A DNA stretch of 64,000 nt from Acidimicrobiia bacterium (GCA_012959995.1 DUCC01000020.1:13744-77743), one strand, 5' to 3'. Positions 5,173 through 58,946 are shown, counted from the first letter of the stretch. The notes: generated by a model not told the origin, from the letters alone. Numbers and translations are program-made.

Positions 5173-5559
5173 TGGTGGAGCTGGGGGGAATCGAACCCCC
5201 GTCCGTCGAAAGGTGACCGTACGCGTTACGACCGTTCCCGAGATTTTGGCTTGCGGCAGCCATCCCGCCGGGTCAGTCGGGCCCGAAAGCCCAGCCGCTA
5301 GGTCTTTCCCTAAGGTCAGCGGTCTTTCTCGCCGTCAGCGGTCTGTCCCTGCTGTCTCCAACGCTTCTGTTGCCGGGTTGCGCTGGACCGACCCCGCGTG
5401 CCGTCACCGGTCGCAGTGACTCTCTGCTACCTAACTAGTTAGGCGGCGAGAGCGAGATCGTCCGTAGTGGCGTCTCTTTTGGTGCCCTGTTTTAAGAGTC
5501 TGAGCAACTCTGGTCGCACGAAACGTCCACTGCAGCCGGCGTCGAAACCGATCAGCCCC
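5173..5559 (-). ncRNA. ssrA: tmRNA (transfer-messenger RNA)
   Basis: Minus strand starts GGGGCTGATCGGTTTCGAC and ends GGTTCGATTCCCCCCAGCTCCACCA. Tag frame 5486..5439 reads GTKRDATTDDLALAA-stop (resume codon approximate). Confidence 0.96.
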
Positions 5560-18159: not shown

Positions 18160-18241
18160 TGCGGACGGGGGGACTCGAACCCCCATGCCTTGCGGCGCTG
18201 GCACCTAAAGCCAGTGCGTATGCCAATTTCGCCACGTCCGC
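18160..18241 (-). tRNA. tRNA-Leu(TAG), CCA not encoded
   Basis: GCGGACG/CGTCCGC acceptor stem, CTGGC-TTTAGGT-GCCAG anticodon arm, long variable arm, GGTTCGAGTCC T-arm. Confidence 0.93.
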
Positions 18242-45934: not shown

Positions 45935-47563
45935 TTATGTGGCGGGGAAAGTTTTTCCGCCCAACATGGTGCCCCATACGCCGATATTGCGTAATTCCAT
46001 GGGGTCCTCCACGAAGGGATCGGCTTCCAGTACAGCCAAGTCGGCAAACTTTCCCGGGGCGATAGAGCCAATTTCGTGATCCATTTTGAGCTGGTAGGCA
46101 GCCCCGGTGGTGATGGCGTGGAGCGCTTCGTGCATGGTGATGCGTTCTTTAGGGCCAAGAGTTTGGCCGCTGGAGGTCGTGCGGTTCACGGCGGCCCAAG
46201 CTACGTGCAGCGACCCCAAGGGGGTGACCGGGGCATCGCAGTGCATGGAGAGTGGCACGCCAAGGTCGAGGGCGGTGCGGGCGCTGTTCATGCGGGCGGC
46301 GCGGTCGGGGCCCACGGTGGAGGTGACGTGTTGATCGCCCCAGTACCAAGTGTGATTGGAGAAAACGTTGGCGCACATGCCAAGATTTTTGATTCGTTTA
46401 TATTGAGCCGGAGTGGTCAGTTGGCAGTGTTGCACGGTGTAGCGGTGGTCAAAGCGAGGGGTTTCGCTCAGGAGTTCTTCCACGCTGTTGAGGAACACGT
46501 CGACGGCCTGATCGCCGTTGCAATGCACATGAATTAAGAGGCCGGCTTCATGGTAGGGGCGCAGCAGGTCGGTGACTTGTTCGGGGGGCACCAACCACAG
46601 GCCGTTGGGGCGGTCGTTTAGATAACCGGGCCAGTTGAGGCGGGCGGTGTAGCCCTGTATGGAACCGTCTAAAACCATTTTGACGTGCCCAAAGCGGAGT
46701 TTGTCGCTGGACTTTTGGCGGGTGTCGGCCACCGCTTGGGGGCCGGTAGCGGGGTTGAGCATATTGAAGATGGTGACTCGGGCGGGGAATCGAGGGTCGT
46801 TAACGATTTTTTGCCATTGGGCAATGGTGGCGGGGTCAGTTGAGGTGTGATTACCAAGGTCGGTAAGGGTGGTGATGCCGGCTTGATTGGCGAGTTGACC
46901 AAAACCTTGTATGGCGTGCTCTGCCCGGAGGCGCCCCCAAAAGGAGCGAAAGGGTTTTCCGGCTAAAGACATGGCGGCTGGTTCTTGAAGTTCGCCAATG
47001 GGCCATCCTGCCTCATCTTTGGGAACGCCTTCCATGGTGGTGTCGGGAGTGATGTCTTGGGCGGTCATGAGAGCATTGTTTACGGTGGCTATGTGCAGGC
47101 TGGCATGCATGACAAGAATTTCTCGGTGGGTTGAGACTTGGTCGAGGTGGCTGCCGGCCAGGTGTTCTCCATCAAAGTAAATGGGATCGACCCCCCAAGC
47201 CAGAAGAGGCTCGTTGGGATCAACAAGAGCGGCCTCGGCCTGGCGGAGTCGCTTGAGTACATCTTCAATGTTTTTGCAACCGGTCCAGGTTTTACCTTGA
47301 GGATCGGTTTGGTCAAAGAAACCGCAGTAGGTGTGTGTCCAGAGTCCGCCGGCAAAACTATGACTGTGGGCCTCTACGAAACCGGGTAAGAGGGTGTGGT
47401 TGGCAAAGGTGTTGTCAACGGTGTAGTCGTCAAGAACGCTGAGTTCATCAAGGGACCCGATGGCCAAAAAACGCCCATCACGAACCGCCACTGCTTGAGC
47501 GGTGGGCCGTGACGGATCCATAGTGTAAATAGCGGCCGCTGGGTAAATGACTGTTTTGGGCAT
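45935..47563 (-). CDS. Amidohydrolase-3 (YtcJ-like) metal-dependent hydrolase
   Basis: PGFVEAHSH, KMVLDGS, HVHCNGD, TVQHCQ, CDAP, GSIAPGKFADLAVL. Confidence 0.9.
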   Translation of the reverse strand: MPKTVIYPAAAIYTMDPSRPTAQAVAVRDGRFLAIGSLDELSVLDDYTVDNTFANHTLLPGFVEAHSHSFAGGLWTHTYCGFFDQTDPQGKTWTGCKNIEDVLKRLRQAEAALVDPNEPLLAWGVDPIYFDGEHLAGSHLDQVSTHREILVMHASLHIATVNNALMTAQDITPDTTMEGVPKDEAGWPIGELQEPAAMSLAGKPFRSFWGRLRAEHAIQGFGQLANQAGITTLTDLGNHTSTDPATIAQWQKIVNDPRFPARVTIFNMLNPATGPQAVADTRQKSSDKLRFGHVKMVLDGSIQGYTARLNWPGYLNDRPNGLWLVPPEQVTDLLRPYHEAGLLIHVHCNGDQAVDVFLNSVEELLSETPRFDHRYTVQHCQLTTPAQYKRIKNLGMCANVFSNHTWYWGDQHVTSTVGPDRAARMNSARTALDLGVPLSMHCDAPVTPLGSLHVAWAAVNRTTSSGQTLGPKERITMHEALHAITTGAAYQLKMDHEIGSIAPGKFADLAVLEADPFVEDPMELRNIGVWGTMLGGKTFPAT

Positions 47564-47607
47564 ACCAGTGACTCTAGATGTCAAAACCAATCCACCCCAA
47601 CTTGCCC

Positions 47608-47671: not shown

Positions 47672-47904
47672 TAAGGTGGGAGTACCGAGGAAAGGAGGTG
47701 GTCCAAATTAGTAGCAAACCTTGTAGGGCTTCGGAGGTGGACGGCCGCTAGACGGCCCTGGACCATCTGGCGATTACCCGCCATCCACCCCTAAAACGGC
47801 CGTCAGTTCTGGTCCTCCCTGACGTTATTGGCCAATTTAGGAACTCCAGAAAGTTCTAAAATTTAAGACAACGGGAGTGCATCAAACCGGTGTGCTCCCG
47901 TGTC
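47672..47904 (+). ncRNA. Unassigned structured RNA / SD-sequestered small ORF candidate
   Basis: TAAGGT -10-like box, then AAAGGAGGTGGTCCA, crossing 10-bp and 8-bp helices, and a long hairpin at 47867-47904. Confidence 0.45.
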
Positions 47905-47939
47905 GCGTCCCGGGCTCTTTGCTCCACTAGTCTCGGTTT

Positions 47940-48143
47940 ATGGATCGACCAACAGTATTTAGTCATCAACGGTTTTTGGGTGACAAACGAACCCAGCAGG
48001 TTTATGACCTTGATGAAGTCATTGATGAAGAAGTCATGAGTATTGTCCTCGACGAGTTGATGTCGGCCGAAACGTTTTTGTGCTTTGGTCCCGACACCTT
48101 GGCCGAAGCTCGCAACCGGGGTTACCAGTTGCGCAAGGTTTAG
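47940..48143 (+). CDS. Small hypothetical protein (67 aa)
   Basis: TAGTCT 6 nt before ATG. Protein-like sequence ([26 protein letters not shown]). Stop overlaps the aconitase stop. Confidence 0.7.
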
Positions 48144-50413
48144 CCTGCGGTTCGTTGGCGGATCAGGTTTAAGGCGCTGCCGGCGCGAAACCAATCCAAC
48201 TGATCTTCAGAAAAGGTGTGCTTGGTTTCGATGTCGCTACTTGACCCATCGGCATGGTTGATGGTCATGTTCACTGGATTCCCAGGGGCGAGGTCGGCTA
48301 AGCCCGTTACGCCAATCCGGTCGTTTTCACCAATCAAGTCGTAGTCAGCGGGGTTAGCAAAGGTTAAGGCCAGCACGCCTTGTTTTTTCAAGTTGGTTTC
48401 GTGGATGCGAGCGAAAGAGCGAGCTAACACAACTTTGGCGCCGCGGAACCGGGGTTCCATGGCGGCGTGTTCCCGAGAGGACCCTTCGCCCATGTTTTCG
48501 TCACCAATGGCGATCCACGAGATGTTTGCTTCGTGGTAGCGCCGGGCAATCTCTGGGTAGGTGCGGTGCTGCCCGTCGGTTACGTCAAGGCCGGTGCCTA
48601 CTTCGCCGTTGAAGGCGTTAACGGCTCCCATGTAGACGTTGCCGGAGATGTTTTCTAAGTGGCCGCGGTAGGTGAGCCACGGGCCGGCCATCGAAATGTG
48701 GTCGGTGGTGCATTTGCCTTGGGCTTTAAGCAATACCGGCATGTCGGTAAAGTCTTGTCCGTCCCAGGCAGCAAATGGGGTCAATAATTGCAGTCGGTCG
48801 CTGGTGGGGGAGACCACCACGTTTATGTCTGAACCATCAGCGGGCGGGGCTACAAAGGTGTCTGCGCCGGGGTCGAAACCGTCGGCCGGTAGTTCTTCGC
48901 CTGCCCCAACGGTGAGGCGCACTTCTTGGCCGTCGGCGTTGGTCAAGGTGTCGGTGGCTGGGTCGAAGTCCAAACGCCCGGCCAGGGTTAAAGCGATGAC
49001 CGTTTCTGGTGAGGTTACGAAAGCGTGGGTGGAGGCGTAACCGTCGTTGCGTTTAGGGAAGTTGCGGTTGTAGCTGGTCACGATGGAGTTGGGTACGCCG
49101 TCGTCCATATCTTGGCGGTCCCATTGGCCGATGCAAGGCCCGCAAGCGTTGGCTAGCACGGTGGCGCCCAGCGCTTCGAAGTCGGCCAGTAGGCCGTCTC
49201 GCTCAATGGTGGCTCGCACCTGTTCAGACCCGGGGGTGATCAGCAACGGGATTTTGGCGGTGAGGCCTTTGGCGGTGGCATCGCGGGCGATGGATGCGGC
49301 CCGGGTGATGTCTTCGTAAGAAGAGTTGGTGCATGAACCGATTAATCCGGCGCTTACCTCGAGGGGCCAACCGTTGGCTTCGGCTTCGGCGCCCAGGTCG
49401 GCTACTGGACGGGCCAAGTCGGGGGTGTGGGGGCCGTTGATGTGGGGCGACAAGGTGTTGAGGTCAATTTCGATGACTTCGTCAAAGTAGTCGCCGGGGT
49501 TGGCTTCAACTTCGTCGTCGGCTCGAAGGTGTTGGGCCACGGCATCAGCGGCTTGTGCGATGTCTTGGCGGCCGGTGGCGCTGAGGTAGCGGCCGACGGC
49601 GTCGTCGTAAGCAAAAAGTGAGGTGGTGGCTCCGATTTCTGCGCCCATGTTGCAAATGGTGGCTTTGCCGGTGGCCGAGAGGCTGCGTGCGCCGGGGCCG
49701 AAGTATTCGACTATGGCGCCGGTGCCGCCTTTTACGGTGAGGATGTCGGCTACTTTTAGGATGACATCTTTGGGAGCGGCCCAACCGTTGAGTTGGCCGG
49801 TCAAATGGATGCCGATCAGTTTGGGCCATTTGACGTTCCAAGCAAAACCAGTCATGACATCCACGGCGTCGGCGCCGCCGACTCCGATGGCCACCATGCC
49901 GAGGCCGCCGGCGTTAGGGGTGTGGCTGTCGGTGCCGATCATCATGCCGCCGGGGAAAGCGTATTGTTCGAGTACTACTTGGTGGATTATGCCGGAACCG
50001 GGTTTCCAGAAGCCGGCTCCGTAGCGGGCGCACACGGATTGTAAGAAGTCGTAGACCTCGGCGTTACTTTCAACGGCGGTGAGTAGGTCGGCGTTGCTTT
50101 CTACTTTGGCTTGGATGAGGTGATCGCAGTGCGTGGTGGTGGGGACTTGTACTTCGTCGAGGCCAGCGGTCATGAACTGCAGCCACGCCATTTGTGCGGT
50201 GGCGTCTTGCATGGCGACCCGGTCGGGGCGCATGTCTACGTAGGAGATTCCTCGTTCGAGTTCGGCGGCTGGGTCGTCGAGGTGGTTGATGAGTATTTTT
50301 TCGGCCAGGGTGAGTGATCGGCCGAAACGTTGCCGGCCTGCGGCTAAACGTTTTTCAAGGGTGGCGTACACCTGGTTTACTAATTTGATAGGGGTGGAAG
50401 ATTCAACGGCCAT
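48140..50413 (-). CDS. Aconitate hydratase, mitochondrial-like type
   Basis: [70 protein letters not shown]. Confidence 0.94.
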
Positions 50414-55440: not shown

Positions 55441-55516
55441 TCCGGGGTAGCTCAGCTGGCAGAGCGTCGGACTGTTAATCCGCAGGTCGTGGGTTCGATC
55501 CCCACCCCCGGAGCCA
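55441..55516 (+). tRNA. tRNA-Asn(GTT)
   Basis: TCCGGGG/CCCCGGA acceptor stem, GTT anticodon, encoded CCA. Confidence 0.97.
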
Positions 55517-58870: not shown

Positions 58871-58946
58871 GGGCCGGTAGCTCAGTGGTTAGAGCAGGCG
58901 ACTCATAATCGCTCGGTCGCGGGTTCGATCCCCGCCCGGCCCACCA
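58871..58946 (+). tRNA. tRNA-Ile2(CAT), lysidine type
   Basis: CAT anticodon. Body (TAGCTCAGTGGTTAGAGCAGGCGACTCATAATCGCT) matches the ileX pattern as I recall it, not initiator or elongator Met. Encoded CCA. Confidence 0.85.

What the first reader, a model, noticed from the sequence alone, without database searches (positions are those of the whole stretch)
47672..47904. Unassigned structured RNA with an extended, sequestered Shine-Dalgarno and a tiny ORF
Seen: TAAGGT (47672), then AAGGAGGTGGTCCA (47692-47705), a 13/14 complement of the canonical 16S 3' end. A short frame GTG-GTC-CAA-ATT...TAG (47698-47751, VVQISSKPCRASEVDGR; ATT 47707 is 8 nt from GGAGG) follows. AGGTGGTCCA pairs with TGGACCATCT (47759-47768), masking the SD, while GACGGCCG (47740-47747) pairs with CGGCCGTC (47797-47804) in a crossing register. 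Hairpins lie at 47768-47783 and 47867-47904. The next gene has its own leaderless promoter, so this is not its UTR. Inference: a translation-switch RNA, ribosome-binding sRNA or type I toxin-like locus.
Basis: partly seen in the sequence, partly recalled or inferred. Interest (0 to 1): 0.6.

Follow-up and report, generated by a model that had tools for sequence, protein, structure and literature searches.

The report
Ribosome-docking small RNA, Ms_IGR-5 family
This is a real, free-standing gene for a ~225-base RNA that starts with an oversized ribosome-binding site and carries a tiny 14-codon reading frame; it is a divergent marine-Acidimicrobiia copy of an actinobacterial small RNA that is already catalogued (Ms_IGR-5) and whose job is still unknown.

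Summary
The element is not unassigned. It is a full-length but sub-threshold match to Rfam RF02471, Ms_IGR-5 (32.5 bits against a cut-off of 45; E 1e-5; the only hit in the genome). Homologues in the same order that align to it do pass the cut-off (60.4 and 49.8 bits). It is a free-standing gene: a conserved -10 box, a start at A47684 and a terminator hairpin at 47867-47904. It is found in 22 of 24 genomes of its family and widely across Actinomycetota, with no neighbour gene conserved across the phylum.

In 54 of 54 distinct copies, a 13-17 nt Shine-Dalgarno is followed after 7-13 nt by a start or near-start codon (ATT here). The frame stays open to a stop exactly 15 nt after a second GAGGUG motif. 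The stop is TAG, TGA or TAA, never TGG. Peptide variability shows no codon periodicity.

Helices P1, P3, P4 and the terminator covary.

Most likely mechanism, by analogy with rreB: the RNA docks on the 30S subunit and is translated weakly. This scan has found the same class before on other DNA. It is a new member of a known kind.

The parts
47672..47677 (+). -10 promoter box TAAGGT of the RNA gene
   Evidence: A TAnnnT box 6-7 nt upstream of the conserved 5'-AC... is kept in all 60 loci across the phylum. The promoter scan finds GTGACA-18-TAAAGT at the same place in the same-genus locus L005.
47684..47912 (+). Inferred transcript (~221-229 nt) of the Ms_IGR-5-like RNA
   Evidence: RF02471 matches 47684-47847 over model positions 1-184. 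Conservation begins at A47684. The terminator hairpin is followed by a U-run in low-GC relatives. The exact ends are inferred; they were not mapped.
47685..47688 (+). P1 5' strand (CCGA); pairs with UCGG at 47731-47734
   Evidence: Covaries within the order (GC/AU and AU/GC) and across the phylum (pair types CG/AU/GC/UA/GU).
47689..47705 (+). Extended Shine-Dalgarno GGAAAGGAGGUGGUCCA, 17 nt complementary to the 16S 3' tail
   Evidence: Sequence. The 16S tail was read from same-family genome G010. AGGAGGTGGTCC is invariant or nearly invariant in all homologues.
47700..47704 (+). P1b 5' strand GGUCC; pairs with GGGCU at 47726-47730. Alternatively it is part of the SD-masking helix.
   Evidence: 100% of cells are pairable, with G-U to G-C changes on one side only.
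47707..47751 (+). sORF: AUU start, 14 codons (ISSKPCRASEVDGR), UAG stop
   Evidence: In 54 of 54 distinct homologues there is a start or near-start codon 7-13 nt after AGGAGG, an open frame, and a stop exactly 15 nt after GAGGTG. The other two frames give 9/54 and 0/54. Stops are TAG 38, TGA 11, TAA 5.
47732..47739 (+). Second SD-like motif GGAGGUGG inside the sORF, with 8 nt between its GGAGG core and the last sense codon. Its GGUGG is the 5' strand of P2.
   Evidence: Invariant.
47736..47789 (+). P2 domain: GGUGG 47736-47740 pairs with CCACC 47785-47789, extendable to 9 bp (47736-47744 with 47781-47789)
   Evidence: 97% paired in the order. Covaries across lineages, e.g. GGUGAUUGG:CCAAUCACC, GGUGGCUGC:GCAGYCACC, GGUGGUCGG:CCGGCCACC.
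47743..47757 (+). P2a hairpin GGCCG-CUAGA-CGGCC, with the UAG stop codon in its loop
   Evidence: 84% of cells paired. By eye, relatives keep a hairpin there with shifted registers. This is the weakest of the helices.
47758..47768 (+). Internal anti-SD mimic CUGGACCAUCU
   Evidence: It can pair with AGGUGGUCCAG of the SD region (88% of cells; G-C/G-U changes only), or through GGACCA with the P4 loop UGGUCC (91%). There is no covariation, so neither pairing is proven.
47768..47783 (+). P3 hairpin UGGCG-AUUACC-CGCCA
   Evidence: 4 of 6 pairs show changes on both sides. Its 3' strand also covaries with the P2 extension (alignment column 127 covaries with both column 80 and column 110), which suggests two alternative helices.
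47790..47841 (+). P4 long hairpin (outer, middle and inner stems) with conserved loop UGGUCC at 47810-47815
   Evidence: 14 of 16 pairs have changes on both sides. It corresponds to the 3' hairpin of the Rfam model.
47867..47904 (+). Terminator hairpin (core stem 47873-47882 with 47890-47899)
   Evidence: All 10 stem pairs covary. The homologous hairpins in L005 and L009 are called intrinsic terminators with U-tails. The window copy has no U-run.
47928..47933 (+). Not part of the RNA: -10 box TAGTCT of the next gene (67-aa protein, ATG at 47940), leaderless
   Evidence: A conserved TAnnnT box ends 6-7 nt before the ATG and there is no SD. This also holds where the RNA is absent or not adjacent.

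Best explanation
The region encodes a free-standing RNA of about 225 nt, from about 47684 to about 47910 on the + strand. It is the Acidimicrobiia branch of the actinobacterial sRNA family Ms_IGR-5 (Rfam RF02471).

Anatomy, shown by comparison:
- It has its own -10 box and a terminator.
- The first nucleotides of the RNA pair with the sequence just upstream of a second GAGGUG motif (P1). P1 encloses a 17-nt Shine-Dalgarno, a near-cognate AUU start 8 nt after AGGAGG, and most of a 14-codon sORF.
- The sORF ends at a UAG at a fixed distance after the internal GGAGGUGG.
- Downstream lie an internal anti-SD mimic (CUGGACCAUCU), a small hairpin (P3) and a long hairpin (P4) with a UGGUCC loop.

Mechanism, inferred by analogy with the characterised alpha-proteobacterial small mRNA rreB:
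- The oversized SD docks the RNA on the anti-SD tail of 30S subunits.
- The over-long SD duplex and the weak start codon keep translation low.
- When a ribosome does bind or translate, it must melt P1b, P1 and P2, because their strands lie in the SD-start spacer and in the sORF. This re-partners the anti-SD mimic and the competing P2-extension/P3 strands.
- So the fold and probably the stability of the RNA report ribosome engagement.
- What matters is the act of ribosome binding and translation, not the peptide.

The cellular output is unknown.
For: Identity:
- RF02471 matches at full length: 32.5 bits, E 1.1e-5, and it is the only hit in the 2.03-Mb assembly.
- RF02471 scores run continuously from 185.6 down to 25.8 bits over 44 of 151 Actinomycetota genomes.
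- Homologues in the same order reach 60.4 and 49.8 bits, above the cut-off.

Independent gene:
- The -10 box and terminator are conserved.
- No flanking gene is conserved across the phylum.
- The 67-aa neighbour gene has its own leaderless promoter. It occurs without the RNA in G030, G072, G144 and G186. The RNA occurs without that gene in L004-L008.

sORF:
- 54 of 54 distinct loci keep start, frame and stop, against 9/54 and 0/54 in the other frames.
- All three stop codons occur and TGG never does (Fisher 4.6e-8, not corrected for phylogeny).
- Insertions of 3, 12, 12 and 18 nt keep the frame.
- The middle U of the start codon is invariant, and only ATT, ATC and CTG occur in this order.
- Codon positions 1, 2 and 3 vary equally (0.92, 0.99, 0.94 bits), so the peptide is not what is selected.

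Fold: 89.5% of cells paired, 32 covarying pairs, 0 of 500 shuffles reach it, slid controls 36-50%. P1 and P2 covary phylum-wide.

Ribosome link:
- 17-nt complementarity to the 16S tail.
- Ribosome footprints on Ms_IGR-5 in M. abscessus and M. smegmatis are reported in PMC4974804.
- rreB binds 30S through a 17-nt SD and is weakly translated because of that SD and a GTG start (PMC5711450).
- Ms_IGR-5 is expressed in Streptomyces and M. smegmatis (PMC8079986, PMC8780764, PMC10454040).
Against: - The window copy scores below Rfam's gathering cut-off.
- There are no expression, 30S-binding or translation data for this organism, which is an uncultured marine MAG. Its own 16S is not assembled, so complementarity was judged on a same-family genome.
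- The start here is AUU, and in this order only AUU, AUC or CUG. Translation could be negligible, and the frame could be kept for another reason.
- Much of the sORF's 3' half coincides with conserved RNA motifs (GGGAC, GAGGUGG, the P2 strand). Its conservation is therefore not independent evidence of coding.
- The switching model rests on invariant sequences (SD, GGUCC/GGACC) that cannot show covariation.
- Overexpression of rreB gave no growth phenotype and its function is also unknown. Homology between rreB and Ms_IGR-5 was not tested.
- The statistics across relatives are not corrected for phylogeny.
Confidence: 0.65

Rival explanations
1. A conventional small protein-coding gene: the 14-aa peptide is the functional product, and the RNA structure only tunes its expression.
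For: Start, frame and stop are conserved in 54 of 54 loci. The C-terminal peptide pattern G-T-[SL]-E-V-x-G-R recurs in the order, and [TG][RCS]EV... recurs across the phylum. Ribosome footprints on homologues are reported.
Against: Variability shows no third-position excess (0.92/0.99/0.94 bits). The N-terminal half changes freely in sequence and length (12-20 codons). The conserved C-terminal residues coincide exactly with nucleotide motifs that are invariant at all three codon positions and form P1, P1b and P2. About 120 nt of covarying structure lies downstream of the stop. The RreB and RreR peptides are unstructured (PMC5711450).
Confidence: 0.12
2. A purely non-coding trans-acting sRNA: conserved loops (UGGUCC, CCACC, GAAUCC) base-pair with target mRNAs. 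The SD-like sequence is an internal structural or decoy element, and the ORF is incidental.
For: Rfam catalogues it as an sRNA. It was recovered by pull-down with a foreign Hfq, as the title cited indicates. The 3' domain is strongly covarying and has conserved loops. Weak start codons predominate: 37 of 54 are CTG, ATT, ATC or ATA.
Against: An incidental ORF would not keep a start-like codon with an invariant central U at SD spacing, keep the frame through indels, and vary its stop only among TAG, TGA and TAA. 17-nt complementarity to the 16S tail is far beyond structural need. No targets are known.
Confidence: 0.15
3. A cis-acting leader or attenuator that controls the downstream 67-aa gene (47940-48143) through its terminator.
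For: The RNA lies 69-170 nt upstream of that gene on the same strand in most of the 24 (of 30) order-level loci that carry the gene downstream within about 1.5 kb. The terminator in the window lacks a U-tail.
Against: The gene keeps its own TAnnnT box 6-7 nt before the ATG and has no SD, so it is leaderless. It occurs without any such RNA upstream in G030, G072, G144 and G186. Other genes are inserted between the two in L003, L010, L013 and L025, and the gene is missing from L004-L008. None of 30 distant homologues has it nearby.
Confidence: 0.04
4. A type I toxin-antitoxin-like locus.
For: It has a tiny ORF behind a structured, partly sequestered SD.
Against: The peptide is hydrophilic with no hydrophobic helix. 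It is single-copy and chromosomal, conserved across a phylum with a freely evolving peptide. The minus strand folds less well (z -1.43 against -2.48), and the many G-U pairs fix the functional strand as +. No antisense promoter was found.
Confidence: 0.01

Closest known systems
Rfam RF02471, Ms_IGR-5 (actinobacterial sRNA; IGR-5 = ncMSMEG15794c in M. smegmatis, PMC10454040)
   Same: Full-length covariance-model match. Same 5' end (AC...GGAAGGAGGUGGUCC), same sORF layout with the stop 15 nt after GAGGUG, same P1 and P2 pairings, same GAAUYCC...CCACC segment, and the same 3' hairpin with a GUCC loop. It is a free-standing gene within the phylum Actinomycetota.
   Different: It scores 32.5 bits, below the 45-bit cut-off, so standard Rfam annotation misses it. 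The region after the stop is much shorter (3 nt against 26 in the model's central hairpin). The start is AUU, and in this order only AUU, AUC or CUG, where the Mycobacterium- and Streptomyces-like copies have mostly UUG, AUG or GUG. It belongs to a different class (Acidimicrobiia). The structure line of the Rfam model does not contain the P1 and P2 helices that covary here.
rreB / rreR small mRNAs of alpha-proteobacteria (Hahn et al. 2016, PMC5711450)
   Same: A free-standing small RNA of about 165-225 nt. About 17 nt of complementarity to the 16S 3' end, reaching almost to the start codon. A weak start codon. An sORF of 14-18 codons with a poorly constrained peptide. The SD is partly buried in a conserved hairpin.
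   Different: A different phylum, and sequence homology was not tested here. 30S binding, weak translation and start-codon-dependent turnover were shown for rreB only. rreB uses GUG, not AUU. The second internal SD-like motif at a fixed distance before the stop is described here for the Ms_IGR-5 family; I did not check it in rreB.
Rfam RF01867, Caulobacter sRNA CC2171
   Same: It shares the 5' GAAAGGAGGUGAUCCA start (alignment).
   Different: The match is only 12.9 bits (E 2.5) and is confined to the SD segment. This is a resemblance in design, not evidence of membership.
infC-type control through an AUU start codon (general knowledge)
   Same: A conserved near-cognate start codon behind a good SD. 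This is the arrangement by which IF3 discriminates against initiation.
   Different: There is no link to infC or to any downstream gene. An IF3 dependence here is speculation.

Membership tests
Rfam RF02471 Ms_IGR-5 | Significant covariance-model match over the whole model | tested here: met
   Model positions 1-184 of 184, 32.5 bits. E 1.1e-5 in the 601-nt search and 8.5e-6 for the whole genome. Single hit in the genome.
Rfam RF02471 Ms_IGR-5 | Score at or above the curated gathering cut-off (45 bits) | tested here: not met
   32.5 bits. This is an operational threshold. Homologues that align to the window element at 74-78% identity pass it (L026 60.4, L019 49.8), and the same-genus L003 reaches 42.1. 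I therefore file it as a divergent homologue, not as a hit Rfam would annotate.
Rfam RF02471 Ms_IGR-5 | Shared anatomy: 5' AC-N3-purine-rich-AGGAGGUGRUCC, sORF with stop 15 nt after GAGGUG, P1 and P2 pairings | tested here: met
   Present in all 60 loci compared, including those scoring 110-186 bits.
Rfam RF02471 Ms_IGR-5 | Expressed as a discrete small transcript | not testable with these tools
   Promoter and terminator are inferred from conservation. Expression is shown only for homologues in the literature.
rreB-like small mRNAs (PMC5711450) | At least 16 nt of complementarity to the 16S rRNA 3' end directly upstream of an sORF | tested here: met
   17 contiguous pairs (2 of them G-U) between 47689-47705 and the tail UGGAUCACCUCCUUUCU of same-family genome G010. 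The window's own 16S is not assembled.
rreB-like small mRNAs (PMC5711450) | Preferential association with 30S subunits, weak translation, start-codon-dependent turnover | not testable with these tools
   These are experimental properties of rreB.
rreB-like small mRNAs (PMC5711450) | Sequence or structure homology to rreB/rreR | not tested
   No rreB sequence was fetched. Only the weak CC2171 resemblance was seen.
Type I toxin-antitoxin | Small hydrophobic or membrane-active peptide plus an antisense RNA | tested here: not met
   The peptide ISSKPCRASEVDGR is hydrophilic. There is no antisense promoter or structure signal.
cis-regulatory leader / attenuator | Constant linkage to the regulated downstream gene | tested here: not met
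   Linkage holds only within the order and breaks repeatedly there. The downstream gene is leaderless with its own -10 box.

The most novel reading that the evidence does not exclude
The RNA is a sensor of the cell's translation-initiation capacity (free 30S subunits and/or IF3 fidelity). The super-SD captures 30S subunits. The near-cognate AUU/AUC/CUG start lets initiation proceed only when start-codon discrimination is relaxed. The second SD, spaced 8 nt before the last sense codon, holds the terminating ribosome. Ribosome passage flips two mutually exclusive helices, the P2 extension and P3, both of which covary with the same strand. The flip frees or hides the anti-SD mimic and the UGGUCC loop, which act on other RNAs or on the RNA's own decay. 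This would be a translation-gated riboswitch-like regulator conserved across a phylum, and perhaps beyond it.
Probability: 0.15. Interest if true: 0.75.

Novelty: new member of a known kind. Interest (0 to 1): 0.4.

Why it matters
Ms_IGR-5 and rreB-type RNAs are widely conserved, expressed and ribosome-associated, yet have no known function. This copy extends the family into marine Acidimicrobiia, where Rfam's threshold misses it.

It also sharpens what is actually conserved:
- an oversized SD;
- a start position that tolerates only near-AUG codons;
- a frame and a stop at a fixed distance from a second SD-like motif;
- helices (P1, P2) that are not in the Rfam model's structure line;
- a freely evolving peptide.

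These are concrete handles for experiments in tractable relatives such as M. smegmatis and Streptomyces. For annotation, the practical points are that the family model needs a broader seed and that this intergenic region is a gene.

Tried and rejected
- Rfam at gathering thresholds gave nothing in the region. Only the permissive scan showed RF02471.
- The own-genome 16S search found none, so a same-family genome was used.
- A look-up of earlier scan notes by sequence found nothing. The look-up by words found the class in other genomes.
- A search for flanking genes conserved across the phylum found none.
It appears in the single-sequence MFE, but its centre pair fails in 21 of 29 relatives, and its 3' strand belongs to the covarying P4.
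- GTG at 47698 as the start was rejected, because it is out of frame with the conserved stop in 16 of 54 homologues.
- The type I toxin, cis-leader and rRNA-fragment readings were rejected. For the last, there is no SSU match and the conserved flanks are specific to this RNA.
- The promoter and terminator pattern scans find nothing in the window itself, only in lower-GC relatives.
- The thermodynamic fold of the window sequence alone (z -2.48) differs from the comparative fold, so I did not rely on it.
- My simple anchored search for P2 partners gave unreliable partners in about 20 distant loci (L040-L061). Those were not used as evidence.

Full report
WHAT IS THERE. The finding lies in a 350-nt gap. 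On one side is an amidohydrolase gene (45935-47590, minus strand). On the other is a 67-codon ORF (47940-48143, plus strand) that has no Pfam or NCBIfam family. Beyond that come a convergent aconitase gene (48140-50413, minus) and dnaG.

COMPLEMENTARITY TO 16S. GGAAAGGAGGUGGUCCA (47689-47705) can form 17 contiguous pairs, two of them G-U, with the tail UGGAUCACCUCCUUUCU. I read that tail from a same-family genome. The window's own assembly (37 contigs, 96.7% complete) contains no 16S gene.

IDENTITY. At Rfam's gathering thresholds nothing is reported in this region. The permissive scan gives one strong candidate, RF02471 Ms_IGR-5 ("Actinobacteria sRNA"). It covers 47684-47847 on the plus strand, model positions 1-184 of 184, at 32.5 bits against a 45-bit cut-off, E 1.1e-5. 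It is the only match in the whole 2.03-Mb assembly.

A BLAST-type search of 41 related genomes finds the element in 30 of them, and in 22 of 24 genomes of the window's family. The core 47683-47791 is 70-85% identical across genera and families. That is far above what intergenic DNA retains at such distances.

The Rfam model finds hits in 44 of 151 genomes sampled across the phylum. Scores form a continuum from 185.6 to 25.8 bits. Order-level homologues that align with the window copy score 60.4 and 49.8 bits, above the cut-off, and the same-genus copy scores 42.1. I therefore regard the window element as a divergent homologue of Ms_IGR-5 that Rfam's threshold misses.

What the literature I could read says:
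- Ms_IGR-5 is expressed in Streptomyces lividans and S. avermitilis (PMC8079986, PMC8780764).
- It corresponds to ncMSMEG15794c in M. smegmatis (PMC10454040).
- It carries significant ribosome footprints in M. abscessus and M. smegmatis (PMC4974804).
- No function is given in any of these papers.

AN INDEPENDENT GENE.
- Upstream, a TAnnnT box (TAAGGT at 47672-47677) sits 6-7 nt before a conserved A-C start in all 60 loci examined. In the same-genus locus L005 the promoter scan calls GTGACA-18-TAAAGT at that place.
- Downstream, the hairpin at 47867-47904 covaries at all 10 stem pairs. Its counterparts in lower-GC relatives are called intrinsic terminators with U-tails. The window copy lacks a U-run, so the scan does not call it there.
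- No flanking protein is conserved across the phylum.
- The 67-aa neighbour follows the RNA on the same strand in 24 of 30 order-level loci, but in none of 30 distant ones.
- That neighbour is restricted to the class: 10 of 10 sampled class members have it, and only 1 genome elsewhere.
- It keeps its own TAnnnT box 6-7 nt before the ATG and has no SD, so it is leaderless.
- It occurs with no such RNA upstream in four complete or near-complete relatives.

THE TINY ORF. I anchored each homologue on the SD and on the second GAGGTG motif.
- In 54 of 54 distinct loci there is a start or near-start codon 7-13 nt after AGGAGG. The frame stays open and ends at a stop codon exactly 15 nt after the G of GAGGTG.
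- The other two frames satisfy the same test in 9 of 54 and 0 of 54 loci.
- The stop is TAG in 38, TGA in 11 and TAA in 5. TGG never occurs (Fisher 4.6e-8, not corrected for phylogeny).
- Insertions in the variable part are 3, 12, 12 and 18 nt long.
- Start codons are CTG 14, ATT 12, ATC 10, TTG 9, ATG 4, GTG 4 and ATA 1. All are single-base neighbours of AUG with the central U kept.
- In the window's order only ATT, ATC and CTG occur, always 8 nt after AGGAGG. The combinations CTT, CTC and ATG are absent.
It is out of frame with the conserved stop in 16 of 54 loci (spacers other than 8 or 11). The conserved start position in the window is ATT at 47707.
- The peptide itself does not look selected. 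In codons 2-7 the three codon positions vary equally (0.92, 0.99, 0.94 bits). Length ranges from 12 to 20 codons.
- The conserved C-terminal residues coincide with nucleotide motifs that are invariant at all three codon positions.
- So what is conserved is the ability to start, read and stop, not the peptide product.

THE FOLD. RNAalifold and a hand-refined structure on 29 order-level sequences give 89.5% paired cells and 32 pairs with changes on both sides. None of 500 shuffles reaches this, and slid controls give 36-50%. In window coordinates the helices are:
- P1: 47685-47688 with 47731-47734.
- P1b: 47700-47704 with 47726-47730.
- P2: 47736-47740 with 47785-47789.
- P2a: 47743-47747 with 47753-47757, with the stop codon in its loop.
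- P3: 47768-47772 with 47779-47783.
- P4: 47790-47841, with loop UGGUCC at 47810-47815.
- The terminator.

P1 covaries across the whole phylum (for example CCGA:UCGG, CCAG:CUGG, CACA:UGUG, CGCG:CGCG, CGAG:CUCG). P2 also covaries (GGUGGCUGC:GCAGYCACC, GGUGAUUGG:CCAAUCACC, GGUGGUCGG:CCGGCCACC). Neither helix appears in the structure line of the Rfam model. That probably explains part of the low score. Many G-U pairs fix the plus strand as the functional one, and the minus strand folds less well.

ALTERNATIVE PAIRINGS.
It is pairable in 88% of cells, and the variable strand changes only between C and U opposite G. With that helix enforced, the window RNA folds to -84.0 kcal/mol, against an MFE of -87.1. 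The SD strand is invariant, so there can be no covariation, and the helix remains plausible but unproven. With P1 and P2 in place it would be a pseudoknot.
- The same GGACCA could instead contact the P4 loop UGGUCC (91% pairable, also invariant).
- The 3' strand of P3 (alignment column 127) covaries both with its P3 partner (column 110: UA 15, CG 10) and with a P2 extension (column 80: UA 16, CG 11). That pattern is what two mutually exclusive helices would leave. It could also be a base-composition effect among related genomes.
Its centre pair fails in 21 of 29 relatives, and its 3' strand is part of P4, which covaries strongly. In the window it arises from the palindromic CGGCCG.

MECHANISM. 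The following is shown by comparison. The strands of P1b, P1 and P2 lie between the SD and the start codon or inside the sORF. A ribosome bound at the SD or translating the sORF must therefore melt them. The second SD-like motif, GGAGGUGG, has 8 nt between its GGAGG core and the last sense codon. That is the spacing an initiating ribosome uses, so a terminating ribosome could again pair its anti-SD with the RNA.

The following is inferred by analogy. The characterised small mRNA rreB of Bradyrhizobium has a 17-nt SD that reaches the start codon. It co-sediments with 30S subunits and is translated only weakly, because of that SD and its GTG start. It is stabilised when the start codon is removed. 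Its function is unknown, and its overexpression had no growth effect (PMC5711450).

I therefore propose that this RNA docks on 30S subunits through the oversized SD, is translated rarely from AUU, and changes fold and probably stability when a ribosome engages it. The downstream consequence is unknown. It could be trans-acting loops, decay, or ribosome or IF3 sensing.

COMPARISON AND NOVELTY. This is a new, divergent member of a known family (Ms_IGR-5), with a design like rreB/rreR. Earlier agents of this scan reached the same class on other DNA, in Actinobacteria, Acidobacteria and Chloroflexota. Those notes gave me the pointer to rreB. I re-derived the sORF and fold conclusions independently here.

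Points particular to this branch are the exclusive use of AUU, AUC or CUG starts at a fixed 8-nt spacing, a very short post-stop hairpin with the stop codon in its loop, and order-level adjacency to a class-specific leaderless 67-aa gene. That adjacency appears to be inherited gene order, not coupling.

CAVEATS. Nothing here measures expression, ribosome binding or translation in this organism. Counts across relatives are not phylogenetically independent. Alignments in the region after the stop codon are imperfect.

Two of the 54 distinct loci used in the phylum-wide tallies (L049 from G058 and L059 from G088) come from genomes flagged as unpublished. G041 and G159 appear only in the hit table. 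No conclusion depends on any of these four genomes, but the tallies include them.

Noticed in passing
47940-48143 (+): A 67-aa protein with no Pfam or NCBIfam family and about 4,364 homologues in the protein search. It is found in all 10 sampled Acidimicrobiia genomes outside the window and in only 1 other Actinomycetota genome. It has a conserved leaderless promoter (a TAnnnT box 6-7 nt before the ATG, and no SD). Function unknown.
   Followed up: partly
48140-50413 (-): The aconitase is of the 'mitochondrial' type (TIGR01340, 1108 bits, 757 aa), not the long AcnA type usual in Actinobacteria. Its 3' end overlaps the stop of the convergent 67-aa gene by 4 nt.
   Followed up: no
Rfam RF02471 model as aligned; loci L032-L039: The structure line of the Rfam model lacks two helices that covary across the phylum: P1 (5' end with the sequence just upstream of the second GAGGUG) and P2 (GGUGGCUGC:GCAGYCACC). 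It pairs GGUGGU with GCUGCC instead. The family seed and structure probably need revision, which would raise sensitivity outside Mycobacteriales.
   Followed up: partly
G061 (C126:9255-9458 and C17:3902-4104): One actinobacterial genome has two RF02471 matches (43.9 and 41.1 bits). All other hit genomes in the sample have one.
   Followed up: no
G030, G072, G144, G186 (order-level relatives; loci L064-L067): Complete or near-complete genomes of the same order carry the 67-aa gene but show no Ms_IGR-5-like element upstream of it. None had a hit in the genome-wide RF02471 search, and G030 also had none in the DNA search. The RNA is therefore patchy within the order, or too diverged there to detect.
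   Followed up: partly
5173-5559 (-): tmRNA gene (RF00023, 95.1 bits). Three tRNA genes lie at 18160-18241 (-), 55441-55513 (+) and 58871-58943 (+).
   Followed up: no
whole assembly G000: No 16S rRNA gene is assembled in this 96.7%-complete MAG, so any SD/anti-SD argument for this organism has to borrow the 16S tail of a relative.
   Followed up: yes
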